DNA of 64,000 bases from Escherichia coli. GTDB lineage: Bacteria; Pseudomonadota; Gammaproteobacteria; Enterobacterales; Enterobacteriaceae. Positions 1 to 56,053 of the stretch are shown here, in pieces. The translations under genes were made by a program, and so were the position numbers. The notes under the pieces were generated by a model. It did no database searches. It was not told the DNA's origin and saw only the letters and a program-made list of their open reading frames with translations. The DNA lies in the NCBI RefSeq assembly GCF_050920415.1, contig NZ_CP169309.1; one strand, 5' to 3'. The first letter of the stretch is position 1. Each line of letters begins with the position of its first letter.

Positions 1-302
1 AACACCCGGAAGTAAAAACTGTATCCTATGACAGTTATCAAAATGCCTTTATCGACCTGAAAAATGGTCGTATTGATGGGGTATTTGGTGACACAGCGGT
101 GGTTAATGAATGGCTGAAAACCAATCCACAGCTGGGCGTTGCAACAGAGAAAGTAACCGACCCGCAGTACTTCGGCACCGGTCTGGGCATCGCTGTACGT
201 CCGGATAATAAAGCCCTGCTGGAAAAACTGAATAACGCACTGGCAGCGATTAAAGCAGATGGTACGTATCAGAAAATCAATGACCAGTGGTTCCCGCAGT
301 AA
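1..302 (+). CDS. artJ: Arginine ABC transporter periplasmic binding protein, 3' portion (5' end lies before the window)
   Basis: Open frame runs from window edge to TAA at 300-302; C-terminal peptide ...KADGTYQKINDQWFPQ matches my memory of ArtJ; synteny with rlmC. Confidence 0.85.
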   Translation, partial: HPEVKTVSYDSYQNAFIDLKNGRIDGVFGDTAVVNEWLKTNPQLGVATEKVTDPQYFGTGLGIAVRPDNKALLEKLNNALAAIKADGTYQKINDQWFPQ

Positions 303-454
303 TCGGGACTGATGACAAAAGTAAGATTGCCTGATGCGCTACGCTTATCAGGCCTACATTTACCCTGCAATGCATTGATTTAGCAAGATTTTGCAGGCCG
401 GACAAGGCGCTCACGCCGCATCCGACATGAACAACGCGCACCTTATCAGCAATC

Positions 455-480
455 TGAAGCCGCAGCCGCGGCTTTTTTAT
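455..480 (+). terminator. Rho-independent terminator between convergent artJ and rlmC
   Basis: GC hairpin AAGCCGCAGCCGCGGCTT followed by TTTTTTAT. Confidence 0.5.
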
Positions 481-1604
481 TGCTTCACCAACAGTGTCAG
501 CACTTCATAGTGCGCGGTGTGCGGGAACATATCAAAAAGCTGTACCCGTTCAATACGATAACCTGACAGTTCGCGGATATCTTTGGCCATCGTTTGGGCG
601 TTACAGCTGGAGTAGATGATAAAACGCGGAGCCATCGTTGAAAGATAATCACACAGCGGTTTACCAATGCCGCGGCGCGGCGGGTTAACCAGCACCAGCT
701 CCGGCACCTCCCCCTGAGCGGTGGCAAACTGAGTGGAGTCCAGCGCCTGAAATTGTAAACGCGTTAAGCCCAGTTCAGCGGCTGACTGCTTTGCACAGGC
801 AATGGCCTCTGGCGCAATTTCGATCCCGGTTAACTGCATGTCAGGCGTCGCGCAGTGTAAACCAAAGCCCCCCACACCGCAGAACAGATCCCACATATGT
901 TTAACCGGCAGCTGTCGTACCCAGTCGCGCGCGGTGGCGTACAACTGGCTGGCGACCGCCGGATTAGTCTGGAAGAAACTTTGCGGACGGATCCACAGCG
1001 GTACGTCATTAAAACGCTCTGCCAGCGCCTGTTGTTCGGTCAGGTAGATCTCCGTCTCCCCTTCCATAATCGCCATATGTACCGGCTGAATGTTGACGGT
1101 AATAACTTTCAGCTGCGGCAGTTGTGCCTGTAACCACGGTAGCGCCTTACGCAGTTGTGCCAGCTTGGTTTCGGAACGCAGTACAAAGCGCAGCATCATG
1201 CCACCATCGCTCTGGCTTTCAGTCAGCAGAATGTATTTCAGTTCGCCACGCTTACGCGCCACATTGTAGGGGGTTAGCCCCGCACGGGCGATAAACGGTT
1301 TTAGCGCCGCAAAAACGGGCGCAAATGAGGCAGGATAAAGCGGGCAATCGCAAAGGTCTTCTGGTGTGCCGTCGCGATGCAGCATACCGAGCAGTGGTTT
1401 TTCAACGCTACCACTCACCACCATTTTGGCTTTATTACGAAACCCTTGCTCCGGGCCTGACACCGGCGCGCACCATTCCTCAACCGAAAAGTCGGCGAGC
1501 AGATTTTTAAGATCGGCGGTTTTAGCGGAGAGTTGCTCTGGAATCAGCTGCGTTATCCACTGACAGGAACGACAGCGACCCGCGTCGTAAAGTGCGCACT
1601 GCAT
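477..1604 (-). CDS. rlmC: 23S rRNA (uracil747-C5)-methyltransferase
   Basis: 375-aa ORF; N-terminal Cys cluster ([14 protein letters not shown]) and SAM-MTase motifs; recognised as RlmC/RumB. Confidence 0.93.
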
Positions 1605-1644
1605 ACATTGACCTTCACATCATCAGGGGCGACGATTATACACA

Positions 1645-2133
1645 TTATTGCAACTGGAAGAACCGCCGACTGGTCGAGGGAACGAACAGTAGCAACAGGA
1701 TGAGCATATCCGGCAACTTCTGCAGCATCAGACTATGGAAGATTTCACGTTTTGATTCACCGGGAATGCTGAACAGCTCCGGATAACCATACCCCAGCGA
1801 AGCCGCCCACAAATAACTGGCGGCCGTGATTTGTGTCAACAGATACAGCCAGCGCGCCCAGCGACGCCCTTTCACCAGTGAAAACGCACACCAGATCTCA
1901 ATGAAAACCAGCACCAGGCTGCTTAAAAAGACCAGTGTTAAACTCCAGGTTTGTACACTGCGATGAATGAACTCGCCAATACCGCGCACGCCCAGCGTAT
2001 TGAAAATCATCAGCACGTCGAGGCCACGGATCATAATAATGGCGAGCGCCGCCACCTGCACCAGCGCAGGCACATTCAGGCGAGCATGAGATGAAGATGT
2101 TTTCTTAAAAAATCCCAACGTTTCGTCTTCCAT
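1645..2133 (-). CDS. ybjO: Inner membrane protein YbjO
   Basis: 162-aa hydrophobic ORF matching recalled YbjO; synteny. Confidence 0.88.
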   Translation of the reverse strand: MEDETLGFFKKTSSSHARLNVPALVQVAALAIIMIRGLDVLMIFNTLGVRGIGEFIHRSVQTWSLTLVFLSSLVLVFIEIWCAFSLVKGRRWARWLYLLTQITAASYLWAASLGYGYPELFSIPGESKREIFHSLMLQKLPDMLILLLLFVPSTSRRFFQLQ

Positions 2134-2192
2134 GAAAACAATGCCGCGACATGCGCGGCATTATGTAGCCAGGTTGGCAAATTTTAGTGTCT

Positions 2193-3038
2193 TCAGCCAC
2201 GTCTTGCACGCTGGATGTCGCGTATCCGCTGTTTTTCTGCACGCGCCATCAGATACCAGGCGATAAATCCGACAATTCCGACCGCGCCGAGGATCAATGT
2301 TGCCAGGGCGTTGATTTCCGGATTCACCCCCATCCGCACGCTGGAGAAGACCAGCATCGGTAACGTGGTGGCTCCTGGCCCGGAAACAAAGCTGGCAATC
2401 ACCAGATCGTCGAGCGACAGAGTAAAAGCCAGTAACCAGCCAGAAATGATCGCGGGCATGATCATCGGTAGCGTAATGACGAAAAACACTTTCAGCGGCG
2501 TCGCACCGAGATCCATCGCTGCTTCTTCAATGGAACGGTCCAGCTCCCGCAGACGCGACGAAATAACGACTGCCACATAAGCCGTACAGAAAGTGACATG
2601 CGCCAGCCAGATGGTGAGCATGCCTCGCTCCGCAGGCCAGCCGATGGCATGTGCAAGTGCGACAAATAACAACAACAGCGACAAGCCCGTGATGACATCT
2701 GGCATCACCAGCGGCGCGGTGATCATAAAGGCAAAACCATTTGATCCGCGAAACCTGCCAAAGCGCACCAGCACGACCGCCGCAATCGTCCCGAGGATCG
2801 CCGCCGCCGTTGCCGCACAGGCAGCTATTGTCAGGCTTAAACCAACCGCGCTCATCATCGCGTCATCACGCAGTAATTCGCCATACCAGCGCGTTGACCA
2901 GCCCGCCCACACCGTCACCAGCTTCGAGCTGTTAAACGAATAGATAACCAGCATCAGCATTGGCGCGTAGAGAAAGGTGAAGCCCAACAGCAAAATCACA
3001 ATTCGCCAGGGCGAACGAACCACCGGTAAATTATTCAT
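2193..3038 (-). CDS. potI: Putrescine ABC transporter permease PotI
   Basis: ORF track gives 295 aa; internal start MNNLPVV gives the expected 281 aa and an ATGA overlap with the potH stop. Confidence 0.92.
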   Translation of the reverse strand: MNNLPVVRSPWRIVILLLGFTFLYAPMLMLVIYSFNSSKLVTVWAGWSTRWYGELLRDDAMMSAVGLSLTIAACAATAAAILGTIAAVVLVRFGRFRGSNGFAFMITAPLVMPDVITGLSLLLLFVALAHAIGWPAERGMLTIWLAHVTFCTAYVAVVISSRLRELDRSIEEAAMDLGATPLKVFFVITLPMIMPAIISGWLLAFTLSLDDLVIASFVSGPGATTLPMLVFSSVRMGVNPEINALATLILGAVGIVGFIAWYLMARAEKQRIRDIQRARRG

Positions 3039-3988
3039 CCGTGTTCTCCCACGCTTTTTTGCTGATGCTTGTGGAACCACATTATCGGCACAATTAGCAG
3101 CAACAACATGATGATCGCCACTGCCGAGGCCACCGGCCAGTCACGGTTGTTAAAGAACTCCTGCCACAGCACGCGTCCGATCATGATGCTATCCGGACCG
3201 CCGAGCAGCTCCGGGATTACAAACTCGCCCACAGCCGGGATAAACACCAGCATCGATCCGGCAATAATCCCGCCTTTGGTCAGCGGCACGATCACAGTAA
3301 AGAACGTTTTCAGCGGTCGTGCACCGAGATCCAGTGCCGCTTCCACCAGCGAATAATCAATACGAATCAACGCGGTATAAATCGGCAGCACCATAAACGG
3401 CACGTAGGCGTAAACAATGCCAATATAAACGGCCAGGTTGGTATGCAGAATGGTCAGCGGCTGGTCGATAACCCCCAGCCACAGCAGAAAATTATTCAGC
3501 ACGCCGTTATTTTTTAATATTCCCATCCAGGCATAAACGCGGATCAGAAACGAGGTCCACGACGGCAGGATCACCAGCAGCAATAAGATATTGCGGGTCG
3601 AAGGCTTACTGTGCGCCACCGCCCACGCCAGCGGATAGCCGATCAGTAAACAACAAATTGTCGAAATCGCCGCTACCTGTAACGACTGGAGATATGCATC
3701 GAAATAGAGCGGATCGTCAGTCAGTTGCAGGAAATTACCAAGATTGAGGGTGATGGAAAGTTGCCCGTCAGCCCACTCCATCAGTTCGGTATAAGGTGGA
3801 ATAGCGCGCGCCATCTCCGCCAGACTTATTTTAAAGACGATCAGAAATGGCAGCAGAAACAGCAAGATCAACCAGATATACGGCAACGCAATGACCAGTT
3901 TGCGCCCATGCTTCATTTGCAGCTGCGACAACCACAGCTTAAATCCGCCCGGCGGTTTCGACTGGGCAGCAGGTTCAAGTGTACTCAT
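3035..3988 (-). CDS. potH: Putrescine ABC transporter permease PotH
   Basis: 317-aa multi-TM ORF matching recalled PotH; operon context. Confidence 0.94.
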   Translation of the reverse strand: MSTLEPAAQSKPPGGFKLWLSQLQMKHGRKLVIALPYIWLILLFLLPFLIVFKISLAEMARAIPPYTELMEWADGQLSITLNLGNFLQLTDDPLYFDAYLQSLQVAAISTICCLLIGYPLAWAVAHSKPSTRNILLLLVILPSWTSFLIRVYAWMGILKNNGVLNNFLLWLGVIDQPLTILHTNLAVYIGIVYAYVPFMVLPIYTALIRIDYSLVEAALDLGARPLKTFFTVIVPLTKGGIIAGSMLVFIPAVGEFVIPELLGGPDSIMIGRVLWQEFFNNRDWPVASAVAIIMLLLLIVPIMWFHKHQQKSVGEHG

Positions 3989-42671: not shown

Positions 42672-44264
42672 TTACTCGATCCCTTTACTACGCAGGTAAT
42701 CTTCGTAATTACCGCTAAAGTCGATCACGCGTTCCGGGGTGATTTCCAGAATTCGGGTCGCCAGGGAGCTTACAAACTCACGGTCGTGAGAAACAAAGAT
42801 CAGCGTGCCCTGATACAGTTCCAGCGCCATGTTCAGCGACTCAATGGATTCCATATCCAGGTGGTTGGTCGGTTCGTCCATGATCAGAATATTCGGCTTC
42901 TGCATCATTAACTTACCAAACAGCATCCGCCCTTTTTCTCCACCGGAAAGCACTTTCGCTGGCTTTTTGATGTCGTCCTGGCTGAACAGCAAACGACCGA
43001 GAATGCTGCGTACCGCCTGCTCGTCATCGCCTTCCTGCTTCCACTGACTCATCCATTCGAATACGGTCAGATCATTTTCGAACTCATATTCGTGGTCCTG
43101 GGCGTAGTAACCAATGCGCGCGTTTTCAGACCATTTTACGGTGCCGCTGTCCGGTTGCAGATCGCCCACCAGCGTTTTCAGCAGCGTTGATTTACCGACG
43201 CCGTTGGTACCCAGTACCGCCAGTTTTTCACCCACTTCCAGCAGCAGGTTGAGATTTTTAAACAGGGGACCGTTATCAAACCCTTTGGTCAGATCTTCCA
43301 CTTCCAGCGCGTTACGGAACAGTTTCTTATCCTGTTCAAAACGGATGAACGGGTTCTGACGGCTGGAGGCTTTCACCTCTTCAAGTTTGATTTTATCAAT
43401 CTGGCGTGCGCGCGAAGTTGCCTGGCGAGATTTCGAGGCGTTGGCACTAAAGCGGCTAACGAAAGATTGCAACTCAGCAATCTGCGCTTTCTTCTTGGCG
43501 TTATCAGCCAGCAGACGTTCACGCGCCTGAGTCGCCGCCGTCATGTACTCATCGTAGTTGCCCGGATAAACGCGCAGTTCACCGTAATCCAGATCCGCCA
43601 TGTGGGTACAAACCATGTTAAGGAAGTGACGGTCGTGCGAGATGATGATCATGGTGCTGTCACGCTCGTTCAGCACCTGTTCCAGCCAACGAATGGTGTC
43701 GATGTCGAGGTTGTTGGTCGGTTCGTCGAGCAGGAGAATGTCCGGATCAGCAAACAGCGCCTGCGCCAGCAGCACACGCAGCTTCCAGCCAGGAGCAACT
43801 TCACTCATCGGGCCGTAGTGCTGTTCCACTGGAATTCCCACGCCAAGCAACAGTTCACCAGCGCGAGCTTCCGCAGAGTAACCGTCCATTTCGCCGTATT
43901 TCACTTCCAGATCGGCCACTTTATAGCCGTCTTCTTCACTCATTTCCGGCAAAGCATAGATGCGGTCGCGCTCCTGCTTCACTTCCCACAACTCTTTATG
44001 CCCCATGATCACCGTATCCAGCACGGTGAACTCTTCAAAGGCAAACTGATCCTGACGCAATTTACCAATGCGCTCGTTGGGATCGAGGGAAACGTTACCC
44101 AGCGTCGGCTCTAAGTCGCCGCCAAGGATCTTCATAAAGGTGGATTTACCACTACCGTTCGCGCCAATCAGGCCGTAACGGTTGCCGCCGCCAAACTTGA
44201 CGGAAATGTTTTCAAACAACGGCTTACTGCCGAACTGCATGGTGACGTTACTGGAAACTAACAC
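42672..44264 (-). CDS. ybiT: ABC-F family ATPase YbiT
   Basis: 530-aa ORF with two ABC cassettes (GANGSGKST and GTNGVGKST) and no TM domain. Confidence 0.93.
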
Positions 44265-44482
44265 AGGCGTATCCTGAAAAGAGATATGACAAACCGCGTA
44301 TTATGCCATAAGTCTGAAAGAAGATCCCGTCCCCCGCTTAAGGTCTACACTCTTCCCAAAGGCAAAAAATGTGATTTCGTACACATCTGATTTCACTGTG
44401 AGCTGGAATGAACTTATAATGCGCTTCCAATACTCTAATATTCTCAACCCAATGGCCTGCCAGGCACAAAATCTCGCTTAAC

Positions 44483-45403
44483 ATGAATATGAAATTGAAA
44501 ACATTATTCGCAGCGGCCTTCGCTGTTGTCGGCTTTTGCAGTACCGCCTCTGCGGTAACTTATCCTCTGCCAACCGACGGGAGTCGCCTGGTTGGTCAGA
44601 ATCAGGTGATCACCATTCCTGAAGGTAACACTCAGCCGCTGGAGTATTTTGCCGCCGAGTACCAGATGGGTCTTTCCAACATGATGGAAGCTAACCCGGG
44701 TGTGGATACCTTCCTGCCGAAAGGCGGTACTGTACTGAACATTCCGCAGCAGCTGATCCTGCCGGATACCGTTCATGAAGGCATTGTCATTAACAGCGCA
44801 GAGATGCGTCTCTATTACTATCCGAAAGGCAGCAACACCGTTATCGTGCTGCCCATCGGCATTGGTCAGTTAGGCAAAGACACGCCTATCAACTGGACCA
44901 CCAAAGTTGAGCGTAAAAAAGCAGGCCCTACCTGGACGCCGACCGCCAAAATGCACGCAGAGTACCGCGCTGCGGGCGAACCGCTTCCGGCTGTCGTTCC
45001 GGCAGGTCCGGATAACCCGATGGGGCTGTATGCACTCTACATCGGTCGCCTGTACGCTATCCATGGCACCAACGCCAACTTCGGTATCGGCCTGCGTGTA
45101 AGTCATGGTTGTGTGCGTCTGCGTAACGAAGACATCAAATTCCTGTTCGAGAAAGTGCCGGTCGGTACTCGCGTACAGTTTATTGATGAGCCGGTAAAAG
45201 CGACCACCGAGCCTGACGGCAGCCGTTATATTGAAGTCCATAACCCGCTGTCTACCACCGAAGCCCAGTTTGAAGGTCAGGAAATTGTGCCAATTACCCT
45301 GACCAAGAGCGTGCAGACAGTAACTGGTCAGCCTGATGTGGATCAGGTCGTGCTGGATGAAGCGATCAAAAATCGTTCCGGGATGCCGGTTCGTCTGAAT
45401 TAA
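44483..45403 (+). CDS. ldtB: L,D-transpeptidase LdtB (YbiS)
   Basis: 306-aa ORF with signal peptide and catalytic SHGCVRL motif. Confidence 0.93.
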
Positions 45404-45421
45404 TCTTCAAAACTTAAATTA

Positions 45422-45451
45422 AAAGGCGGACTCATAATCCGCCTTTTTTAT
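45422..45451 (+). terminator. Rho-independent terminator after ldtB
   Basis: Hairpin AAAGGCGGACTCATAATCCGCCTTT followed by TTTATTT. Confidence 0.55.
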
Positions 45452-45461
45452 TTGCCAGCAC

Positions 45462-46580
45462 CTAGCTGGCCGGGAACATAACTAACAAAACGTATCCCAC
45501 CAGCGCCGCCCACAACAGCATCGGTATTGAATAGAGATGGAAACGCCACCAGATACGGCGATCGTTTGCCATCCGTAACGCAATCAAATTTGCCAGCGAT
45601 CCGGGTAATAAACCAAAGCCACCCACGTTTACCGCCCATGCCAGTAATAAAGACGGTGGCACATAATTGAGCAGCAAAATCGTGCTCGGCACGTTACTGA
45701 TCACCTGCGATAAACCAATTGCCGTTAACCATAATCCGGGTTCGGATAAATGGCTCACATTGCTCAACACGCCCTGCAAAGCTGGCAGTTGGGTCAGCAA
45801 ATGGACGTCGATAAACATCGCCATAAATACCAGCAGCAGAGTCCAGTCCACGCTGATCACCACGCGACGAGCCAGCAGCGCAAAGCCCGCCGCTACAATC
45901 ACCAGTCCCCACAGCTCTTGTTTTAACTCCAGCGCCGTCAGAAAGACGATATACAGCCCCAGACAACTCCACACCAGCCGCGGTTTCCACTCAGGTGTTT
46001 GCGCCCCCGTATGATATTGCAGCGCCTTTCCAGGGAAACAACACCAGCACAGTAGCAGGAGTGTCAGCATCATTGCGCCAGCCAGCGGTGCCATTTGGGC
46101 AATAAACCCGGCAAACGAAAGACCAGAACGACCCCAGATAAGAATATTTTGCGGGTTGCCAATCGGCGTCAGTAGCGAACCCGCATTGACTGCCAGCGCC
46201 TCAAAAATAATCAGTCGATTAACCGGGATCTCACACAGTCTTTTTAGTGTGATTGTCAGCGGAACAACAATAAACAGCGCGACATCGTTGGTCAGAAATG
46301 TTGAAAGCAACGCCGCCGCCAGCACCATAAACATTGCCAGCCGACGCTCAGTAGCAAAGCGGCGCACCATTTTGCGCCCCAGCACATCAAAATAACCGCT
46401 TAACTCCACACCTTTGGTCAGCAGCATCAGGCCACTGAGGGTGATGATAGTGTGCCAGTCGATAGCAGCAAGCCAGGATTTCGGTGCAAAGGGAACGAAA
46501 AAACTTAATCCGATGCCAACAAGAATTAATAACTGAAAAAAGCGATCGCCTTGTAGCGTGCGTAAAAAAGGCAGGCTCAT
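45462..46580 (-). CDS. ybiR: Putative anion permease YbiR (ArsB/NhaD superfamily)
   Basis: 372-aa multi-TM ORF; ATGA overlap with the mntR stop. Confidence 0.9.
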
Positions 46581-47044
46581 TTGGCACCGTGTTTCTGGGT
46601 AAACAAACGAAAGGCATCCAGCGTCTCTTCACTGACATGGTGCTCCATGCCTTCCGCGTCGCGACGAGCGATTTCCGGGCTGACGCCCAACACCAACAAG
46701 AAATTTTCGACTATCTGATGTCGCTCGCGGCTTTCCTGCGCCAGTTTCTCTCCTTCTGCCGTTAAAAACACGCCACGCCAGGGGATCATTTCAATCAGCC
46801 CCATGGTTGCCAGTCGTTTGAGCATTTTAGCCACCGTCGGTTGCGAAACGCCCAGACGAGCAGCCATGTCCACCTGACGAGCTTCCCCCACTTCCCTGAT
46901 CAAGTCAGAAATCAGCTCAACGTAATCATCAATAAGCTCGCGCCGGTGTGCCTCTCTGACCTGGCGGAACCCTTCAACGTGCTCTTCCACATTCACTAAC
47001 TGCGTCACTTTTTTTGCTGTTGGCGTACCTGCGCGACGACTCAT
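46577..47044 (-). CDS. mntR: Manganese-responsive transcriptional regulator MntR (DtxR family)
   Basis: 155-aa [25 protein letters not shown] matching recalled MntR. Confidence 0.95.
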
Positions 47045-47409
47045 TGTGCTTCCTCATTATGGTGACGCATACATAGCGTTCTCATTTCGTGCGCACATTG
47101 TAAACCAGAGTTGCGAAGGTACAAAAAATTAACGTTTTAGCAATAGCTATATAATATAGCTTTGGACCCCAATAAAAACCAAATGAAAACAATTAATTAT
47201 GAAAGAAATATCATTGTAATGTCGCAAGAATGTCGCAGAATTTTGAATTTTACATCAAACAGAAATCTTACATAAGTCGTCGAAAAGGAAAACTACCAAT
47301 ATCTTTTCGGTGTTTCCTTTCCCCAAATGGAATTTTTCCTGTTATGCTAATATTCGTTTTAAGGTGTTGATAACTAACATTACACAAAGCAATTAGAACG
47401 GATACTAAC

Positions 47410-48984
47410 ATGGCTAAAAACGCAAAAAACGAGAAACCAAAAAAGTTAGCTTATAGAATAAAAAGTATTAATATTGAAAAATTAAAAGGTATAAATAACT
47501 GCCCTATTTCCTTCCCAGCAGACAGGTCTGTAACTGCTATAATGGGAATTAATGGTTCAGGTAAATCAACAATATTGCACGCTCTATCATGTGTTTTCAA
47601 ACCCAAAGAAAAATCATCCCAAGAAAATAATAGATTTTCTGACTTCTTTACCCCTCACAATGAAAATAACTGGCAAGATAGTAAATTCTCAGTAAAATTT
47701 CGAGCGGGAGAGATAAAAAACAATGGTAATAAAGTCTTTTTTGAAGAAATAGATAATGAAGAAAAGAAAGATATTGTTTATGGCAAGGATAAAAGGTGGA
47801 AACCAGTTTACGCAAGAAGACTTGAAAGAGAATCTATATATATAGGATTACAAAATCTTGCAACGTTAGCTGACAATACAGGAGCATCAAGATACTCAGA
47901 ATATGAAAGAGTAGATATTTATGATAAAGATATAAAGAATCAAATGATATTAGCTCTGAATAAAATCTTAGATGCAGATTACAACGATTTGTTTGAATGC
48001 CGCACCATTAAGGGAAACAAAAAATTCATAGGCATGGTTAAAAACGGCATTGAGTATACAGAACATACTATGGGTGCTGGAGAAAAGAGAGTCTTTGAGA
48101 TAGTTAAAAATGTTTATAATGGAAAGTTAATGCCCAATGGTTTTCTAATCATTGATGAAATAGATGTTTTGCTACATGAAAGAGCTTTTCATGAATTAAT
48201 TAATTTTCTTATCGAAGAAAGCAAGTCTATGTGTTTTGAGGTTGTTTTCACAACACATAGAGAATCCATAATAAAGTTTAAAAATCAAATCAATATAGTA
48301 AGTATATGGAACATAGGGAATGGAATAGAGGCTTATCCCGGCGTTTCTGCGGATGCTCTTCGACAGATATCCAATGTAGAACCTGATATGGTCAATGTGT
48401 TTGTAGAAGACAACTTAGCAAAAACAGCACTAAATATTTTAGTTGAAAGTGAAGGTATGAATGAACAAGTTGATATCTCGCTTTTTGGTTCGGCTGAGAA
48501 TTCAGCTGTAATTTTGTCAGGACTTAAATTAACTGGCAAACGAATTGATACAAGCCTGGCAATTTTAGACGGTGATTACTATATTACCCTCCCTGAAAAG
48601 ACCAAAATGGTTGATAGAGTGTTATCTGGAACAGATAAAAAAGTAGAAAAAAAAGAAGTCTTATCAAGAATATTCCAATTCAATTTAGATGTGACTGACG
48701 TCAAAGGCTCTCCAGAAAAAAACCATCGTGATTGGTTTGAATCTATAGACGAAAACAATATTTCGGAAAATGATAAGACAATGTTTCTTAACCTGAAAAA
48801 ACATTCTACAAGTATTGGTGCTTTAACTGATTATCATGAATATTATCCAGAGTTAGCTCGAAGGTCAAAATTAGATAATATTGAGTACAAAGTTTTGAAT
48901 TATATTAGTAAGTATAGTAATAAATGGGATTTTTACATAAATGATATTAGAAATGAAATAAAAAAAGCAATTGCAGCGATCTAA
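47410..48984 (+). CDS. ABC-type ATPase fused to a TOPRIM-like domain; class-1 OLD-family-like nuclease, candidate anti-phage defence protein
   Basis: 524-aa ORF in AT-rich DNA. Walker A GINGSGKST (aa 46-54), signature-like MGAGEKR (221-227), Walker B FLIIDEID (245-252), H-loop TTHR (281-284), then a TOPRIM-like Glu (FVEDN, E333) and DxD (LDGDY, 387-389). Own terminator downstream. Confidence 0.6.
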   Translation: MAKNAKNEKPKKLAYRIKSINIEKLKGINNCPISFPADRSVTAIMGINGSGKSTILHALSCVFKPKEKSSQENNRFSDFFTPHNENNWQDSKFSVKFRAGEIKNNGNKVFFEEIDNEEKKDIVYGKDKRWKPVYARRLERESIYIGLQNLATLADNTGASRYSEYERVDIYDKDIKNQMILALNKILDADYNDLFECRTIKGNKKFIGMVKNGIEYTEHTMGAGEKRVFEIVKNVYNGKLMPNGFLIIDEIDVLLHERAFHELINFLIEESKSMCFEVVFTTHRESIIKFKNQINIVSIWNIGNGIEAYPGVSADALRQISNVEPDMVNVFVEDNLAKTALNILVESEGMNEQVDISLFGSAENSAVILSGLKLTGKRIDTSLAILDGDYYITLPEKTKMVDRVLSGTDKKVEKKEVLSRIFQFNLDVTDVKGSPEKNHRDWFESIDENNISENDKTMFLNLKKHSTSIGALTDYHEYYPELARRSKLDNIEYKVLNYISKYSNKWDFYINDIRNEIKKAIAAI

Positions 48985-48991
48985 ACCTCAT

Positions 48992-49021
48992 AAAAGGCGT
49001 AATTTATACGCCTTTTTTTAA
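48992..49021 (+). terminator. Rho-independent terminator after the OLD-like gene
   Basis: Hairpin AAAAGGCGTAATTTATACGCCTTTT followed by a T-run, 8 nt after the stop. Confidence 0.55.
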
Positions 49022-49181
49022 GGTTTAAATTATAGTTGCTAATTTCTACTCTTTGTTCCCTCTGTTCGTGCACGTTTCAGGTAGTAAGCTCTCCATCGAA
49101 CCATAGAGATTGAACGCTTTGATTTTTTTTTACATACTGTCTGAAGCTCATTTACTAAGTATTGATAGTCAGGATGACAAC

Positions 49182-49808
49182 ATGACCTCCTACGATGAAC
49201 TTAAAGAATGCATCCGCCTTGAAGTCATTGGCCATGACAAATCCTTTTCATGGCGTAAAGCGTTACTTCGTACCCGACGCAACCAGAAGAAGCACTTCCT
49301 GTTCTGGTGGCGTATCGCTTCATGGCTCTATGGCCAGAATAGTAAGTTCAAAAAGCGCATTGCCCGCAGAATTGAAAACCGCCTCAAGTACCTGCATAGC
49401 GTTGATATTTCGCTGTCATGCAAAATCGGCAAGGGTTTAAACATTGCTCATCTGAACGGTATTGTCATTACTGACAATTGCGTGATTGGTGATTTCGCCG
49501 ACCTGAAGCAAGGCATCACCATAGGGTTACGCACCGACAGTGCCGACGCGATGATAGTCATTGGTGATCATGTTGATATTGGCTGTAATTCGTCCATTCT
49601 GGGCGGCAAGGTTACGATCGGAAACAATGTCACCATTGGGGCGCATTCACTGGTACTTCAGAACATCCCCAGCGACACCGTTTATAAAAACAAGATCACG
49701 CCGGTGTATACATCCAAACTACCGCAGCAGGAATATCAGGAAAATCGGCCTTTTGTCACTGGCAAGGCGATAAAAGAAGCGTCCCGTTCCGCAGAAGCGG
49801 TGCTGTAA
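49182..49808 (+). CDS. Hexapeptide-repeat (left-handed beta-helix) acetyltransferase, CysE/WcaB-like
   Basis: Start MTSYDELKE preceded by AGGATG; the 232-aa track start at 49110 has no RBS. N-terminal helical region (RIASWLY...RIARRIENRLKYLHSVDI) then hexapeptide repeats IGKGLNIAH-GIVITDNCVIGD-ITIG-IVIGDHVDIG-VTIGNNVTIGAHSLVL. Confidence 0.6.
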   Translation: MTSYDELKECIRLEVIGHDKSFSWRKALLRTRRNQKKHFLFWWRIASWLYGQNSKFKKRIARRIENRLKYLHSVDISLSCKIGKGLNIAHLNGIVITDNCVIGDFADLKQGITIGLRTDSADAMIVIGDHVDIGCNSSILGGKVTIGNNVTIGAHSLVLQNIPSDTVYKNKITPVYTSKLPQQEYQENRPFVTGKAIKEASRSAEAVL

Positions 49809-50186
49809 TTTCGCTGAACAAATTTCAGTTATGAAGATTGCATAAATTTACGTGCAGCCCGCGCCAGCTCTTACAAGCGGGCTAATCTCTATAATGTCTG
49901 GCTTATCTCCCAACGATCCACGAACACCGCCTAAAATATAATTTTCCCTTTATTATCTGTGCGTTATGATTTTACACCGATCCTTAACAGATCCTCTTTA
50001 CTGAAAAAAATGAAATTTCTTTCAATCATTTCAGTTCCTGTTCTCCGCAAAGCCGCCAGTAATGGTGCGGTCTGGCGCTCTGGTTTGTAGAAAAATAAAA
50101 CTGAAAAAATTTCCAGATCCAGAAACCGCAGGCGGGTGCGGTGTAGCGCCGTTTTTGTCTGCGAAAGATTTATTTTGTCGGCGCAT

Positions 50187-50230
50187 CGCAGCGCCAGCGC
50201 AGCGCCAGCGCAGCGCCAGCGCAGCGCCAT
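50187..50230. repeat. Four tandem copies of an 11-bp unit CGCAGCGCCAG
   Basis: Direct reading: cgcagcgccag x3 then cgcagcgccat, in the non-coding gap between the acetyltransferase and the tail operon. Confidence 0.8.
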
Positions 50231-50315
50231 GCGCACGATCTTTTATGTGTGTTGCGTTGGGTTAATTTGTTGCCTGAAGTGCTGAGGGCGCGTTCTGCTG
50301 CGTCTGAGGAAGGGT

Positions 50316-50342
50316 ATGAAAAAGCCCGCATTATGCGGGCGT
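50316..50342 (-). terminator. Rho-independent terminator at the end of the tail operon
   Basis: On the minus strand, hairpin GCCCGCATAATGCGGGC followed by TTTTTC, 10 nt after the stop of the 567-aa gene. Confidence 0.5.
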
Positions 50343-50352
50343 GTTGTCATGG

Positions 50353-52056
50353 TCAGGCAATTATATTCTGGTACTTGCTCCGGGTCTGCCCTGCTTTCGT
50401 CGCCGTCTGTACGAACGCGTCAGCATTGGTTGGCGTCCCAACAGTGGGGTGTGAATGGTTCGCGCATTGCTGCGCCAGCTCTGCCAGTAAATCAATGGTA
50501 TCCAGCATCATGGTCAGGGCGTTGATACTCTCGCTGCCAATATGGACAGTTGCCCCCATGACCTGCTGACCGCCAGCGGCCACTGATTTACGCAGTGCGG
50601 CAATCTTCTCTGTCAGGCTTTCGCCAACCTCCACGGCTACAGCACCGCCCACTTTAGTGGACTGCTGTCCTGCTATGTCCGTTTCTTCGTTTCCTTCAAT
50701 ACTGGCCAGCCTGTTTCCTTTCACCGCCTGGCTATAATCACCGGCGCTTACCTGCTGGATGGCTCCGGCCAGCAGTGTGGCGGTTCCCAGTACCGTGGTT
50801 TTATCCGTGGCTTTCACCGTGGTTTCACGGCTGACCAGTTCGCGCTGTTCCGTATCGGCTTTTACGGTTCGCGCCATCGATGTTTCGCTGATGGTCTGAT
50901 CGGTCTGCCTTACCCAGTCGCCCGCCTGAGTCACCCTCTGGGATACTTCTTCCCGCTGCTGCTGCAACTGTTCACCGGGTTTAACGTCCGGCAGACTGGT
51001 GCCATCCGGTAGCGTCTGCCTGATAAAAGGTTTATCCGGTCTGCCTCCCGTGAATGCAACCTCAACCAGCGTCCCTTCTGGCGGAAACTGAAACATACCT
51101 GAATCATTCCCGGCCATTGGTACCGGCAGCGGCACCGCTGAATAAACAGGCGTCTGATTGTCCGGGTTTCCGTCTGCGTCAAGCAGCTGCACGTCCACGG
51201 CGTAACGTGGCCGGAAGGGATCGGCAAAGTTACCGCTTTTTACCGGCTCTGAATGCGCCACAACTCTGGCCATCTTTGGCAAATGAAGCCCGGATGCCAG
51301 TTCCGGGTAATGGCTTTCAATCTGCCGTTGCGCCGGTGTTTTCTGCAAAGGTTTACCCGTTGCGCGGTTTCTCGGCGTCCATGTGATCGCCATCGCGTCA
51401 TTAGTCAGGTGAACTTTAGTCACGCGTTCACCGTTCATCTCCACCCCTGGCCGCATAGTCTGGATCACTGGTAATGTCACAGAGTTACCGCCAGCAGCCC
51501 CCTGGCTGAACTCTGACGGGATTTCTACGGGGCGACCGGCAAATAATGACTTTTCTGCGCCGCCGACGTAAAGCGAACCATCAGGCAACTGGTACCAGAT
51601 GTAATCCTGGATACTGAACGCCCTTCCCAGATTGTTCAGCAACTGATAACCAGTACCGTTATGGGTAAAATGTGGGATGGGGGTATCGCTGTACTGTGCA
51701 TCAGGCACACTGACCGTGATCCCGCTGTTTTCTTCCAGCCAGCTGGCAACCTCGCGTAAAGTTGGATGTTGAAATGAGCACGGCCACATCCTTTCAAATA
51801 CACCTGCCAGCTCACGAATGAACAGACGCTGAAAACCGTTTTCAGCGGGCTGCGATCGCTCCACATACCCCGTAAACCAGCGCAAAAGCAGATCGGTATA
51901 CCCCACATCCAGCCGCACCAGTTTTCCGGTGTAATCGGTTGTTGTCTCTGCGGTGATGAAGCCCCGGCCGCAGCTGTTCAGCTCCAGTACCAGGCTGGCA
52001 TCCACCAGGTGAACTTCATCAGTTGAAAGGTAAAGGCGTTTTACTGGTTTCATCAT
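50353..52056 (-). CDS. Phage tail hub/spike-like protein (gpV/VgrG-type OB-fold candidate)
   Basis: 567-aa ORF, last gene of the tail operon; internal segment GTLVEVAFTGGRPDKPFIRQTLPDG resembles the G-x-V-x-V-x-F-x-G-D-x-D-x-P-x-I motif of gpV/gp5/VgrG spikes; Ala/Gly/Thr-rich C-terminal region. Confidence 0.4.
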   Translation of the reverse strand: MMKPVKRLYLSTDEVHLVDASLVLELNSCGRGFITAETTTDYTGKLVRLDVGYTDLLLRWFTGYVERSQPAENGFQRLFIRELAGVFERMWPCSFQHPTLREVASWLEENSGITVSVPDAQYSDTPIPHFTHNGTGYQLLNNLGRAFSIQDYIWYQLPDGSLYVGGAEKSLFAGRPVEIPSEFSQGAAGGNSVTLPVIQTMRPGVEMNGERVTKVHLTNDAMAITWTPRNRATGKPLQKTPAQRQIESHYPELASGLHLPKMARVVAHSEPVKSGNFADPFRPRYAVDVQLLDADGNPDNQTPVYSAVPLPVPMAGNDSGMFQFPPEGTLVEVAFTGGRPDKPFIRQTLPDGTSLPDVKPGEQLQQQREEVSQRVTQAGDWVRQTDQTISETSMARTVKADTEQRELVSRETTVKATDKTTVLGTATLLAGAIQQVSAGDYSQAVKGNRLASIEGNEETDIAGQQSTKVGGAVAVEVGESLTEKIAALRKSVAAGGQQVMGATVHIGSESINALTMMLDTIDLLAELAQQCANHSHPTVGTPTNADAFVQTATKAGQTRSKYQNIIA

Positions 52057-52601
52057 TAACCCAAAGCATCATTGACGGGCTTCAGCACCTTGCGTTCAAA
52101 CCACGTCAGTTTTTCTTCATCTTCTCCGGCAGACTGGCCACCGGACTGTCCCGCACTGCCGGTAGTCTGTTTTTTTGCGGTCGTCTTACCTGTTGCCCTG
52201 GCCTCTCGCTTTTCCTGCACGCTGATATGTTCCGCCAGTGTGAATGTCACCAGCCAGGCCATTTTCCCGTCCTGCTGGGGTGCATCCAGCATTCCGCTGA
52301 ACGTTGCTTCACGAAAATTAACAGCACGGGCAACTTCATGCGCCACGCGGTACTTCTGACGATTACCACTGGCATCGGTAGCACTGGCCAGCTCAAAAAT
52401 ACGCTTCAGTATTTCAGGCTGTTTAAAAGGTATTTCACCGCTGATCCGCAGTTCCTTTCCCTTTGCTCCCTGCTCTGATTTTGTTGTGGCGCTGGTCTGG
52501 CCGGACTGATCTTTATCCTGAAATTGCTGTGAAACAGTCACCCGCATGTTTTTCAGCTGGATGGCCTCGCCATTAAGCGCCAGTGTCGGGATCGAAGTCA
52601 T
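52056..52601 (-). CDS. Phage protein of unknown function within the tail operon
   Basis: 181-aa ORF translationally coupled to neighbours; no recognisable motif; Lys/Gln/Gly-rich C-terminus. Confidence 0.35.
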   Translation of the reverse strand: MTSIPTLALNGEAIQLKNMRVTVSQQFQDKDQSGQTSATTKSEQGAKGKELRISGEIPFKQPEILKRIFELASATDASGNRQKYRVAHEVARAVNFREATFSGMLDAPQQDGKMAWLVTFTLAEHISVQEKREARATGKTTAKKQTTGSAGQSGGQSAGEDEEKLTWFERKVLKPVNDALG

Positions 52602-53298
52602 GAATCATTCCCTTTATTCCATCAAGATTATCGCCAACCAGCATCATGGCAGCGGTGTAAACGGCAGACTGCTGCGGAATGTCCTTCACCAGTTCCAGTA
52701 ACGTGGTGCCGGTGTCTCCGCTGGCAGTAAAAACCCACACTCTGGCACTCTTTCCCTGTAAATCATTCAGGCCGCTGGCTACATCACTGATAAGCTGGTC
52801 ACGCAGCTGCGTGAACTCGCCCAGCTGTTTTTTCAGCCCTTCGATATCAAACCCGGCATCCGCCGCCTTTTGTGCCTGGCTGATTGCCGTAGCAGATAAA
52901 GCTGCCCTGCTGGTTGGTACAGACAGCGGAATGGACGCAGGTAACGCTGCGGCGGTTTTCGCAGGGATCTGCATCTTTTCAATAGCCAGCGCTGCGGCGG
53001 ATTGCGCCAGTCGTTTGACCTGCGTGAATGCCGGGGCGGGGAAAATCCCGACCAGGTTATTCAGGCTGGCCATAAAGTTTTCCTGTGTCTGTCCGGTGAC
53101 CATCATAATCACCACGTCCGCATTCCCCCCAGTTCCGGCCAGGCGTTCAGCAAGATAGCGAACGGCATTAACCGGGCTGAGATATGCCCCGTTCGCAGTC
53201 TGCTGTCCCAGCCCATAAATCCACGGATGCGCAGGAACGATCGAACAGTTCAGCGCAGCAACAGAATCCGTGAAGGCCAGACGTGCTTCACGCCACAT
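52573..53298 (-). CDS. Phage protein of unknown function within the tail operon
   Basis: ORF 52573-53334; start chosen at MWREARL to minimise overlap with tfa; no recognisable motif. Confidence 0.3.
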   Translation of the reverse strand: MWREARLAFTDSVAALNCSIVPAHPWIYGLGQQTANGAYLSPVNAVRYLAERLAGTGGNADVVIMMVTGQTQENFMASLNNLVGIFPAPAFTQVKRLAQSAAALAIEKMQIPAKTAAALPASIPLSVPTSRAALSATAISQAQKAADAGFDIEGLKKQLGEFTQLRDQLISDVASGLNDLQGKSARVWVFTASGDTGTTLLELVKDIPQQSAVYTAAMMLVGDNLDGIKGMIHDFDPDTGA

Positions 53299-53875
53299 TT
53301 CCAGGCACCTCCGGCCACACAATTTCCGGCGCATCTTCCGGTTGAATACGGTTCAGTAAAACGCGGTATTTTTTCCAGGCGGTAAGCAGCAGTGCTTCTT
53401 CTTCAGTCGCCATGTCTAAATCAACGGCATCCTGCAATGTGGCAATGGCGTCATTGGCCTGTTTAAGCAGTCTTTTCTTTTCGGCGTCTGCCTCGCTGAC
53501 TAATGCAATTCGCATGGCCTCCGCATCATCCACCCACGCCTTACCATTCCATTTTTGCCAGGCATTAGCCGGTGCAGACGTGGTTGTCCCTTCCGGGTAA
53601 GCGCCTGGCTCGGTGATCACCAGTTCATTACCGTTTTCTGTATCAAACACCACCTCACCACGATGATCCTCACGGGAAATCCATCTTTGCTTCTCTGAAT
53701 CAAAAATTGCCACAAACCCCGCTTTGATTACCGGTGGTTTTATTGTGGTGCAGTTAGCTGGTAGTCCGGTATGCGCAGGTATAAAAGCGTCACCCGAACC
53801 AATAAATTCATTCGTGTCGGAACGCAGGTTATAAACAGTAACTATTTGATCGGTTTCACTCATTTTAAAAGTCAT
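53288..53875 (-). CDS. Tail fiber assembly protein (Tfa family)
   Basis: 195 aa; close resemblance to recalled E. coli TfaE/TfaQ-type proteins (NEFIGSGDAFIPAHTGLPAN ... KWNGKAWV ... LLTAWKKYRVLLNRIQPEDAPEIVWPEVP). Confidence 0.8.
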   Translation of the reverse strand: MTFKMSETDQIVTVYNLRSDTNEFIGSGDAFIPAHTGLPANCTTIKPPVIKAGFVAIFDSEKQRWISREDHRGEVVFDTENGNELVITEPGAYPEGTTTSAPANAWQKWNGKAWVDDAEAMRIALVSEADAEKKRLLKQANDAIATLQDAVDLDMATEEEALLLTAWKKYRVLLNRIQPEDAPEIVWPEVPGNVA

Positions 53876-55449
53876 TATGCGAGTCTCACTATGTAGTTAA
53901 ATGCAATATTCTTAACGGTCGTTTCTGCGTTGCCCGACGCGGCGACGGTAATGGTGTGGCTATGTGCGCCAATTGCCACGGTATGAGAGTGAGCGCCAAT
54001 ACCTACGGTGTGATTATGTGCACCAATGGCTACGGTGTGCGCGTGGTTTCCCGCCGAACTGGTGGCGGCTCGCCCCTGATCGCTACGTGGTACCCCCCAG
54101 TCACTACCACCTGATTGCACGTTCCCGCCATAACCAATGGTGTGCGTATGCGCTCCCGTGGTATTTGTCGTTTTCGTGCCATAGTCAAACGTGCTCGCCG
54201 TTTTAGTACCGTAATCAAAGGACGATGTTGGTTTTGTCCCCAGATCGGTACTGGATGCACTGGCTGTGTGGTCATGAGATTTATTGCCATCATCTTCATA
54301 GGAGAGAACTGCGCGACCGTCTGGCTTTCCTTTGATTGTCTGGCGGCGCATGTCAGTAATAACACCCGATGGATACGCAGCAGCCAGCAAAGGATATGCC
54401 GCCGTATTAAAAGACTGCCCCTGCATAATTGCCCATCCAGTAGGTGGGATATCCGTTGGCCATGGAAGCGGCACACCAACCGGCAGAACATCACTGCGAC
54501 TTAAAACGGCCAGTTCACCCAGATCCAGACTTTTTCTTGCTTTTACTTTGTCGTTAACATCAGCAAGGTTTGCATCCTTACGCAAAAAATCGCTGCTGGC
54601 CTGCTGTTCTCCCAGGCTACCTTTTGGCCTTAAATCCGTGATGTTGCCATCCGCATCAATGCTGGCCACAGCAAACACATAATGCTGAACCCCGTTCTGA
54701 ACGTAATCAGCAAGATTTGCAGCCACCGTGATTTTGCTCTGCACATTCCAGACACTGGTCAGCGTCCCTGTCCAGCACACATCCAGCCAGACTTTTACCG
54801 GCTTTGTCGTTACCGTAATATTCTGATTCGCAGCCAGTGACGCACGAAGTCCAGCCACATACCCCGTGCCTTTCGTGACAAAAAACTGATTTCCGGTTTT
54901 GGCTACCAGATACCCGTTACCAAAAAACGCCGCCGCGCCATAAATATCCATATTTTCCAGGCGCTGGCGCTCATCCATTCCGGCCATACGCGCTGTAAAA
55001 TCAATCTGCCATGTTTCAGCGGGTGTATTAATCCCGGTTTCCGTTTGTGCGCCGTTGTACTCCATCAGAAACGAGCGGGTCAGCACGTTCCCCTGTTGAC
55101 CTTCTTTTGTTTTCAGTTTCTGCTGTGATGGTGCATGGACAATCATTGCCAGAGTACCGCTGGCCTTATTGAGCAGACCGATCCAGTTAAAACTGAAATC
55201 ACCCACATCTGCGCCCAGCACTACGGAATAAACCACCCCGTTTTCATTCACCACACCGGTGCGGGTAACAGATTGCCGGTGAACAATCTGTGCTGTCGGG
55301 GGCAACGCTTCATTGCGGTCAACAGGTGTATCCGGGTTTAAATCCGGCACACTGGCAAAAACAAATTCATCCAGTAGTACCGGTTCACCCGTTGCGCCCT
55401 GCTGTGCTTTCCAGTTTTCAAACGCCAGTGTGATGGCTGTCTGTGACAT
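53875..55449 (-). CDS. Side tail fiber protein
   Basis: 524 aa; C-terminal HxH repeats [49 protein letters not shown] typical of Stf-family fibers; immediately upstream of tfa. Confidence 0.8.
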
Positions 55450-55459
55450 AAAAACCTCC

Positions 55460-56053
55460 TTACAAACTCGCGCTGAATGTTGCGCTGCGGGCTTCCGTCC
55501 CTGCTAACGTCGCCGGGTAAACCACATATTCCCCCTGATCCCACCCAGCCCTGATAACCAGGCTTTCAGACGTGATCACCTCAAACTGATAACGGCGGCA
55601 TGTTCGCCCGTACTGGCGGATTATCTGGATCAGCAGCTGCGTGTTGTCTGCAATCTGGCTGTCTGTAACCCGAACCAGAATCACATCCCAGTCGATATCC
55701 GGTTGCCGTTCTAACAGCTCCACATAACCAATTCCCAGCCGTTCAAAGATATTGATAAACCCCTCTACTGAACCGGCATCCCGCGCATTCACGAAGGCAA
55801 AAGCCACGCGTTTGCGGAACAGGGTCAACGGTTCACCATCAAAGCGGGTGATATCCCGGTCATAAGCCAGCAGATTCAGTAATGCCGGTGTACACGTCAG
55901 CGGATCAAACTGGTTCATTGGCCAGGTAACCCAGCCGTAAACCTCAGCCCAGAACCGCCGCGCCGCTTTCAGCAATTTCCCCGGTTCACCTTTATTCATC
56001 CAGGAAGGCAAGACCATCCCGGCCAGCTTTTTCATGAACTCATTCATTCTCAA
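55460..56053 (-). CDS. Tail protein, YmfQ/gpI-like (DUF2313-type)
   Basis: 197 aa between the baseplate J-like gene and the fiber, as for e14 ymfQ; family assignment is from memory only. Confidence 0.55.

What the first reader, a model, noticed from the sequence alone, without database searches (positions are those of the whole stretch)
53900..54400. Repeat motifs in the tail fiber C-terminal region (host-range determinant)
The fiber carries short internal repeats ([19 protein letters not shown] and [24 protein letters not shown]) before a C-terminus resembling E. coli Stf-family fibers. Such repeat-containing distal domains are the receptor-binding part, so this element probably targets E. 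coli-like surface structures.
Basis: partly seen in the sequence, partly recalled or inferred. Interest (0 to 1): 0.25.

Follow-up and report, generated by a model that had tools for sequence, protein, structure and literature searches.

The report
T4/lambda-type tail-fibre tip on prophage
The repeats are real and lie in the receptor-binding tip of a P2-like prophage tail fibre that is a well-known module shared with phage T4 gp37 and lambda/Rac Stf; the repeats are its conserved metal-binding scaffold, and the short variable loop between them most likely sets host range, so the finding is ordinary.

Summary
Both repeats are confirmed. [19 protein letters not shown] is aa 409-427 (54169-54225) and [24 protein letters not shown] is aa 476-499 (53953-54024) of a 524-aa tail fibre on the minus strand (53875-55449). 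A lambda-Tfa-type chaperone gene follows it (53288-53875). The element is an ESSI-2-like Peduoviridae prophage.

The last 204 residues match the crystallised T4 gp37 tip (2XGF, E=7e-67, 59% identity).

The role assigned to the repeats needs correcting:
- The six HxH motifs align with six of T4's seven iron-binding HxH sites and are conserved in diverse relatives.
- The FDYGTKT units (outgoing strand) and the GAHxHTVxI units (returning strand) are paired rungs of one hairpin needle. Their lengths co-vary in 129 of 130 family representatives.
- Among prophage orthologues that are 89-99% identical, variation is concentrated at aa 437-466, the equivalent of the gp37 head. There DNA identity falls to 28-43%.

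ESSI2_ev239, whose tip is identical, was isolated as plaques on rough laboratory E. coli. The family has already been described (Magaziner & Salmond 2022). Verdict: already known, low interest.

The parts
53875..55449 (-). Tail fibre gene, 524 aa
   Evidence: ORF. Pfam PF12571 and PF07484. PHROG tail-fibre families. 99% identical to the ESSI2_ev239 tail fibre protein.
54976..55443 (-). N-terminal domain (aa 3-158), Phage_tail_fib N-terminal; presumed baseplate anchor
   Evidence: PF12571, E=4e-32. The N-terminal ~290 aa are shared with ~650-aa fibres that are aligned only over the N-terminal ~56% of the query.
54490..54975 (-). Shaft (aa 159-320), specific to this prophage lineage
   Evidence: Conserved among ESSI-2-like fibres. 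No match to T4, lambda or StfR.
54280..54489 (-). Collar/knob domain (aa 321-390), equivalent to T4 gp37 811-881
   Evidence: PF07484 Collar at aa 325-369. Alignment to 2XGF. Residue mapping.
54142..54279 (-). Outgoing (descending) strand of the needle (aa 391-436), with HDH392 and HTH434
   Evidence: Aligns to T4 gp37 882-931. The His are invariant in 42 homologues.
54169..54225 (-). Tandem FDYGTKT repeat (aa 409-427; two 10-aa units)
   Evidence: Lambda Stf also has two copies; T4 and StfR have one.
54052..54141 (-). Hypervariable tip/head loop (aa 437-466), the predicted receptor-contact cassette
   Evidence: Equivalent to T4 gp37 932-965. Column conservation is 0.27-0.31 here against 0.8-0.99 elsewhere. 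DNA identity to orthologues falls to 28-43%.
53944..54051 (-). Returning (ascending) strand repeat array: four 9-aa G-x-H-x-H-T-[VI]-x-[IV] units (aa 467-502), with HxH at 469, 478, 487 and 496
   Evidence: They align with T4 HxH 966, 980, 989 and 998.
53878..53943 (-). Conserved C-terminal segment (aa 503-524) ending [11 protein letters not shown]
   Evidence: The [11 protein letters not shown] ending is identical in T4 gp37, StfR and lambda orf-314.
53288..53875 (-). Tail fibre assembly protein (Tfa), 195 aa
   Evidence: PF02413 Caudo_TAP, E=2e-35. 54% identical to lambda Tfa and TfaR, 27% to T4 gp38. 97-99% identical across orthologues with four head types.

Best explanation
Window 53900-54400 encodes most of the distal receptor-binding module of the tail fibre of an ESSI-2-like (Peduoviridae) prophage. 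The module is the collar-needle-head tip known from T4 gp37 and lambda/Rac Stf, fused to a lineage-specific N-terminal anchor and shaft.

By homology with the gp37 crystal structure, three chains leave the collar, run out as a strand, form a small head, and run back. This gives a six-stranded needle whose axis is pinned by metal ions, each held by HxH motifs from the three chains.

The 10-aa FDYGTKT units are on the outgoing strand and the 9-aa GAHxHTVxI units are on the returning strand. They are added or lost in pairs, which sets needle length and the number of metal sites. Here that number is six, against seven in T4 and eight HxH motifs in lambda.

Specificity lies in the roughly 30-aa loop between the repeats (aa 437-466), which is exchanged as a cassette among otherwise near-identical fibres. 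The downstream Tfa folds and trimerises the conserved scaffold.

Shown here: the homology, the motif alignment, the paired length classes, cassette-like variation at the head position, and an invariant chaperone. Inferred: trimer formation, metal binding, receptor contact by the loop, and which receptor is used (an outer-membrane protein or LPS core exposed on rough E. coli).
For: - Match to the solved T4 gp37 tip: 2XGF, E=7e-67, over aa 321-524.
- blastp: 59% identity to T4 gp37 814-1026, 60% to StfR 905-1120, 52% to lambda orf-314.
- Collar domain PF07484.
- HxH at 392, 434, 469, 478, 487 and 496 align with T4 HxH at 883, 929, 966, 980, 989 and 998. T4 H929/H931 are iron ligands and seven irons line the needle (PMC6957217).
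- Hairpin topology of the gp37 needle (PMC9603124).
- The His of five of the six HxH motifs are invariant in 42 homologues, and the 469/471 pair is widely conserved.
- Paired stem lengths: the outgoing and returning HxH spans fall into the classes (32,18), (42,27), (46,32), (52,36) and (56,41). The difference is 14-16 in 129 of 130 representatives, Spearman 0.999.
- Variation is concentrated at aa 437-466, with DNA identity of 28-43% there against about 95% in the flanks.
- A related head cassette is present in the unrelated 46-kb phage Chlobot.
- Tfa is 97-99% identical across four head types.
- ESSI2_ev239 and ESSI2_ev129 carry the same head and form plaques on rough E. coli (PMC6969025).
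- The family is described, with divergence at the same place, in PMC9659904.
Against: - No structure or metal content was obtained for this protein. The AlphaFold2 monomer model was unusable (mean pLDDT 50.9).
- One T4 metal site (HTH 915) has no counterpart here.
- The receptor is unknown. Relatives use different ones: OmpC and LPS for T4, LPS core GlcII for PhiNP.
- The sequences used for the length-coupling statistic are related, so the correlation overstates independent support.
Confidence: 0.9

Rival explanations
1. The repeats themselves are the receptor-binding, host-range-determining elements.
For: They lie in the distal domain that binds receptor in T4 and lambda relatives. Copy number differs between family members.
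Against: The repeats are unchanged in orthologues that carry four different head loops and are highly conserved in 23 homologues. In T4 the equivalent His are buried iron ligands, while the residues affecting LPS/OmpC use map to tip residues 932-959.
Confidence: 0.07
2. The repeats are recent DNA-level tandem duplications that act as a slippage or contingency locus, varying fibre length within a population.
For: Tandem Repeats Finder detects a 27-nt period array. The family shows discrete copy-number classes.
Against: Units are only 52-67% identical at the DNA level although conserved as protein. Copy number is the same in all seven close orthologues. A change in one strand alone would break the hairpin register, and almost no such forms are seen.
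Confidence: 0.03
3. The fibre belongs to a defective prophage or tailocin-like remnant, so it mediates killing or nothing rather than infection.
For: Only the tail, baseplate and fibre part of the element (about 50144-64000) is inside the window, so the head, replication and integration genes could not be checked.
Against: All tail-module ORFs seen are intact and 96-97% identical to plaque-forming ESSI2_ev phages (PMC6969025). The tip architecture and mechanism would be the same in either case.
Confidence: 0.12

Closest known systems
T4 gp37 long-tail-fibre receptor-binding tip (PDB 2XGF)
   Same: 59% identity over the last ~204 aa. Shared features are the collar, the HxH metal-site motifs, the hypervariable head position, and the identical [11 protein letters not shown] ending.
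   Different: - The carrier here is a 524-aa P2-like fibre, not a 1026-aa T-even distal half-fibre.
- It has six HxH rather than seven: a second FDYGTKT unit replaces the HTH-915 unit, and the returning strand is 5 aa shorter.
- The head loop is unrelated.
- The chaperone is lambda-Tfa-like (54%) rather than gp38-like (27%).
Lambda Stf (orf-401/orf-314) with Tfa, and Rac prophage StfR/TfaR
   Same: 52-60% identity across the tip, with a Tfa gene 54% identical immediately downstream. Lambda Stf also has the duplicated FDYGTK unit.
   Different: Lambda has eight HxH and a longer head gap (48 against 35). The N-terminal parts are unrelated: side fibre of a siphovirus against baseplate fibre of a myovirus.
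T4- and lambda-based RBP family of Magaziner & Salmond 2022 (PhiNP ORF6; PMC9659904)
   Same: A ~215-aa tip shared across more than 200 phages, including P2-like temperate myoviruses. Divergence is confined to the gp37 932-965 region and a Tfa-type partner is present.
   Different: PhiNP ORF6 is 282 aa and uses LPS GlcII. The head here is a different cassette and its receptor is untested.
Tail fibres of Escherichia phages ESSI2_ev239 and ESSI2_ev129
   Same: 98-99% identical over the full length, with an identical head cassette and the same gene order.
   Different: Essentially none. ESSI2_ev015 and ESSI2_ev040 differ mainly by a replaced head cassette.
e14 StfE remnant
   Same: Collar region and C-terminal NIAFNYIVR motif, 31% identity.
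   Different: It is a 178-aa pseudogene fragment that aligns poorly over the HxH stem region, so it is a weak comparator.

Membership tests
gp37/Stf-type receptor-binding tip (collar-needle-head) | Significant sequence similarity over the terminal ~205-215 aa to the crystallised gp37 tip | tested here: met
   phmmer against PDB: 2XGF, E=7e-67, aa 321-524. blastp 59% identity.
gp37/Stf-type receptor-binding tip (collar-needle-head) | Phage tail collar domain preceding the needle | tested here: met
   PF07484, 33.1 bits against a cut-off of 24, aa 325-369.
gp37/Stf-type receptor-binding tip (collar-needle-head) | HxH motifs at the positions of the gp37 iron ligands on both strands of the needle | tested here: met
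   Six of T4's seven HxH are aligned. The His of five motifs are invariant in 42 homologues; 469/471 are widely conserved. The unit at T4 915 is absent.
gp37/Stf-type receptor-binding tip (collar-needle-head) | Actual metal binding and an intertwined trimeric fold | not testable with these tools
   The AlphaFold2 monomer gave mean pLDDT 50.9. No multimer or metal modelling was available.
gp37/Stf-type receptor-binding tip (collar-needle-head) | Hypervariable segment at the gp37 932-965 position flanked by conserved stem | tested here: met
   Conservation 0.27-0.31 at aa 436-465 against 0.8-0.99 elsewhere. Cassette replacement at the DNA level.
gp37/Stf-type receptor-binding tip (collar-needle-head) | Conserved C-terminal [11 protein letters not shown] ending | tested here: met
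   Identical in T4 gp37, StfR and lambda orf-314.
gp37/Stf-type receptor-binding tip (collar-needle-head) | Cognate Tfa/gp38-type chaperone gene immediately downstream | tested here: met
   PF02413, E=2e-35. 54% identity to lambda Tfa and TfaR, 27% to T4 gp38.
gp37/Stf-type receptor-binding tip (collar-needle-head) | Binds a cell-surface receptor and determines host range | not testable with these tools
   Indirect only: ESSI2_ev239 and ESSI2_ev129, with the same tip, form plaques on rough E. coli K-12 or C (PMC6969025).
P2-type 'phage tail-collar fibre' (Peduoviridae baseplate fibre) | N-terminal Phage_tail_fib domain, and a position after the baseplate J and I-like genes | tested here: met
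   PF12571, E=4e-32. Upstream genes are PF09684 Tail_P2_I and PF04865 Baseplate_J. Synteny with Evevirus ev239.
Pfam PF03335 Phage_fiber repeat | Score at or above the curated gathering threshold | tested here: not met
   16.9 bits against a cut-off of 20; the best stretch is aa 429-439 ([11 protein letters not shown]). Some close relatives carry a precomputed PF03335 hit.

The most novel reading that the evidence does not exclude
The needle of this fibre family is built from paired rungs. Each rung is one ~10-aa unit on the outgoing strand (FDYGTKT-type or HxH-type) matched with one 9-aa GAHxHTVxI unit on the returning strand. Evolution therefore changes needle length and metal-site number only in discrete, co-ordinated steps (5, 6, 7 or 8 HxH). 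The conserved rungs would also serve as homology arms for swapping the ~30-aa head cassette between unrelated phages. The particular head found here ([28 protein letters not shown]) could recognise a receptor not yet assigned to this family.
Probability: 0.4. Interest if true: 0.25.

Novelty: already known. Interest (0 to 1): 0.1.

Why it matters
It matters little beyond correct annotation. The region can be labelled as a gp37/Stf-type receptor-binding tip with its Tfa chaperone. The likely specificity determinant can be narrowed to aa 437-466 (window 54052-54141) rather than the repeats.

For host-range engineering, the conserved repeat blocks mark natural junctions for swapping head cassettes. 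The invariant Tfa suggests that one chaperone serves several heads.

The paired length classes of the two strands give a simple rule for designing chimeric needles.

Tried and rejected
- AlphaFold2 on the full-length monomer with a 42-sequence alignment gave mean pLDDT 50.9 and pTM 0.29, with the whole tip below 50. I did not run a fold search on it, because the intertwined, metal-dependent trimer cannot be modelled as a monomer.
- NCBIfam gave no hit for the fibre, the Tfa or the next gene.
- Pfam PF03335 was below threshold.
- The primary structure paper (Bartual et al. 2010) is not held in the library. Structural facts were taken from PMC6957217 and PMC9603124 instead.
- A search for 'His box' recombination papers found no paper using that term. 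The idea that HxH units act as recombination arms therefore rests on my memory of Tétart et al. 1998 and on the cassette boundaries.
- I tested the three ORFs that overlap the region, two antisense and one out of frame on the minus strand; none has a Pfam match.
- I rejected recent DNA slippage as the origin of the repeats.
- No tRNA is present in the window that could mark the attachment site.

Full report
**1. The observation**

Window 53900-54400 lies inside a 524-aa ORF on the minus strand, 53875-55449, and encodes aa 350-517 of it.
- [19 protein letters not shown] is aa 409-427 (54169-54225).
- [24 protein letters not shown] is aa 476-499 (53953-54024).
- The protein has six HxH motifs, at 392, 434, 469, 478, 487 and 496. 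They hold 12 of its 15 histidines.

The repeats are not chance:
- No shuffle out of 20,000 reached six HxH.
- An exact 7-aa repeat occurred in 37 of 50,000 shuffles.
- Tandem Repeats Finder reports a 27-nt period with 3.2 copies at 53953-54039.

Units are only 52-67% identical as DNA (19/30, and 14-18/27) although conserved as protein. They are therefore old repeats maintained by selection on the protein, not recent slippage products. The three ORFs that overlap the region (two antisense, one out of frame on the minus strand) have no Pfam match.

**2. What the gene is and where it sits**

Pfam gives the Phage_tail_fib N-terminal domain (aa 3-158, E=4e-32) and the Phage Tail Collar domain (aa 325-369). 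PHROGs gives tail-fibre families.

The neighbouring genes fit a myovirus tail module:
- The next gene downstream (53288-53875) is a Caudo_TAP tail fibre assembly protein.
- Upstream are a P2 gpI-like tail protein and a Baseplate_J protein.
- Further downstream are an HP1 ORF34-like baseplate protein and a spike/hub protein.

Window ~50144-64000 is 96-97% identical to Escherichia phages ESSI2_ev129, ev015 and ev040. The fibre-tfa segment is 98% identical to ESSI2_ev239. All are Peduoviridae (Evevirus or Quadragintavirus). The prophage sits next to chromosomal mntR-ybiR-ldtB, which is about 95% identical to E. coli.

**3. The tip is the gp37/Stf module**

A search of solved structures gives the T4 gp37 receptor-binding tip (2XGF) at E=7e-67 over aa 321-524. 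Pairwise blastp results:

| Comparison | Identity | Region |
|---|---|---|
| Fibre vs T4 gp37 | 59% | 814-1026 |
| Fibre vs Rac StfR | 60% | 905-1120 |
| Fibre vs lambda Stf orf-314 | 52% | 273 aligned positions |
| Fibre vs e14 StfE remnant | 31% | collar and C-terminus |
| Fibre vs StfP | ~26% | weak, short match (E=8e-4) |
| Tfa vs lambda Tfa and TfaR | 54% | full length |
| Tfa vs T4 gp38 | 27% | most of the length |

T4 gp37, StfR, lambda Stf and this fibre all end in [11 protein letters not shown].

It is established that the T4 gp37 C-terminus and gp38 are of lambda-like origin (PMC3157838). A "T4- and lambda-based RBP family" of more than 200 phages has been described. It includes the P2-like Citrobacter prophage PhiNP, and its members diverge only at gp37 932-965 (PMC9659904).

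The module is widespread:
- tblastn finds it in 595 phage records.
- An exhaustive search finds 1504 clusters at 50% identity with E<=1e-3, and 231 with E<=1e-30.
- Among the best 150 hits, the carrier proteins range from 214 to 1599 aa.

**4. What the repeats do**

In T4 each chain leaves the knob, runs to the tip, and returns, so both termini lie at the knob (PMC9603124). Seven iron atoms line the needle, and H929/H931 are ligands (PMC6957217).

T4 has exactly seven HxH motifs, at 883, 915, 929, 966, 980, 989 and 998. Those of this fibre align with six of them, all except 915. At the 915 position this fibre has its second FDYGTKT unit, and its returning strand is 5 aa shorter than T4's. Lambda has one extra FDYGTK unit going out, one extra GAHQHPV unit coming back, and eight HxH in total.

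I measured two spans in each protein: from the first to the last outgoing HxH (D), and from the first to the last returning HxH (A). Results:
- In 110 homologues the values fell into a small set of (D,A) pairs.
- In 130 representatives of 50%-identity clusters they fell into the classes (32,18), (42,27), (46,32), (52,36) and (55-56,41).
- D-A was 14-16 in 129 of the 130, with Spearman 0.999.
- This fibre belongs to the (42,27) class with six HxH.

The sequences are related, so the correlation overstates independent support. The discreteness and near absence of unpaired forms are still clear.

The histidines of five of the six HxH motifs are invariant across 42 diverse homologues.

**5. Where specificity lies**

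Seven orthologues that are 89-99% identical overall carry four unrelated sequences at aa 437-466, while both repeat blocks are unchanged.
- Across 23 homologues, column conservation is 0.27-0.31 at aa 436-465 and 0.8-0.99 elsewhere. At least nine head types occur.
- At the DNA level, identity to ESSI2_ev015, ESSI2_ev040 and two E. coli prophages falls from about 95% to 28-43% in the windows covering aa 436-468. This is cassette replacement, not gradual drift.
- The segment maps to T4 gp37 932-965. In T4, mutations in tip residues 932-959 affect LPS and OmpC use.
- The same head occurs only in ESSI2_ev239 and ESSI2_ev129. A related head (tip 74% identical) sits on the long fibre of the unrelated 46-kb phage Chlobot.
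- Tfa stays 97-99% identical across all four head types. It must therefore recognise the conserved scaffold rather than the head.

Literature indicates that gp38 is not in T4 virions, while the Ur-lambda and Mu Tfa proteins are in theirs (PMC9608196). Which applies here is unknown.

**6. Target**

The four ESSI2_ev phages were isolated from infant faecal viromes as plaques on rough laboratory E. coli: a K-12 hsdR derivative or strain C. They infected few natural isolates (PMC6969025).

ESSI2_ev239 has a 204-aa tip identical to the one in the window. A receptor exposed on strains lacking O-antigen (LPS core or a porin) is the best inference. It is not shown.

**7. Verdict**

This is a known protein in a known, structurally characterised family. 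A protein reported at 100% identity is already in NCBI (P0001). I rate novelty as already known and interest as low.

The only mildly new point is the paired-rung length rule, and it may already be implicit in the structural literature.

**8. What did not work**
- The AlphaFold2 monomer model was unusable (pLDDT 50.9).
- NCBIfam gave no hits.
- Bartual et al. 2010 is not held in the library.
- No 'His box' paper was found.

Noticed in passing
window 47410-49808 (+): Two genes lie between chromosomal mntR and the left end of the prophage. The first is a 524-aa ABC/SMC-type ATPase whose best PADLOC match is the candidate defence protein HEC-04 (3e-33), followed by ATPase-Toprim, AbiLi, PtuA, Old and GajA. 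The second is a hexapeptide acetyltransferase-like gene with no PADLOC match. Other E. coli strains carrying this prophage have different genes here, for example a reverse transcriptase. It looks like a variable defence-cargo hotspot.
   Followed up: partly
window ~50144; flanks 44000-50144: The left prophage boundary lies next to mntR-ybiR-ldtB. The chromosomal flank is only about 95% identical to E. coli genomes, and the NCBI name shown for the identical-fibre cluster is Citrobacter amalonaticus. Mathieu et al. suggested that ESSI2-type phages come from E. albertii or Citrobacter. The host may be a divergent Escherichia lineage. No tRNA is present in the window.
   Followed up: partly
window 50353-53334 (-): Three genes lie after tfa, at the very end of the prophage: a 253-aa protein of unknown function (phrog_1677; it overlaps the tfa 3' end), an HP1 ORF34-like baseplate protein, and a 567-aa spike/hub protein with gp5 C-terminal repeats. 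This is an HP1/ESSI-2-type gene order rather than a P2-type order.
   Followed up: no
homologues P0028-P0119: The same ~290-aa N-terminal anchor is also found on ~650-aa fibres (Salmonella, Citrobacter, Enterobacter) that carry PF03406 repeats and still end in FNYIVRLA. The mosaic joint therefore lies near aa 291-295, and longer tip variants exist on the same chassis.
   Followed up: partly
L012 (phage Chlobot, PP925838.1) 1-3333: An unrelated 46-kb temperate E. coli phage carries a long tail fibre (over 900 aa; the CDS runs past the fetched stretch). Its tip is 74% identical to this one and has a related head cassette. This is an example of cross-lineage exchange of the tip plus Tfa.
   Followed up: partly
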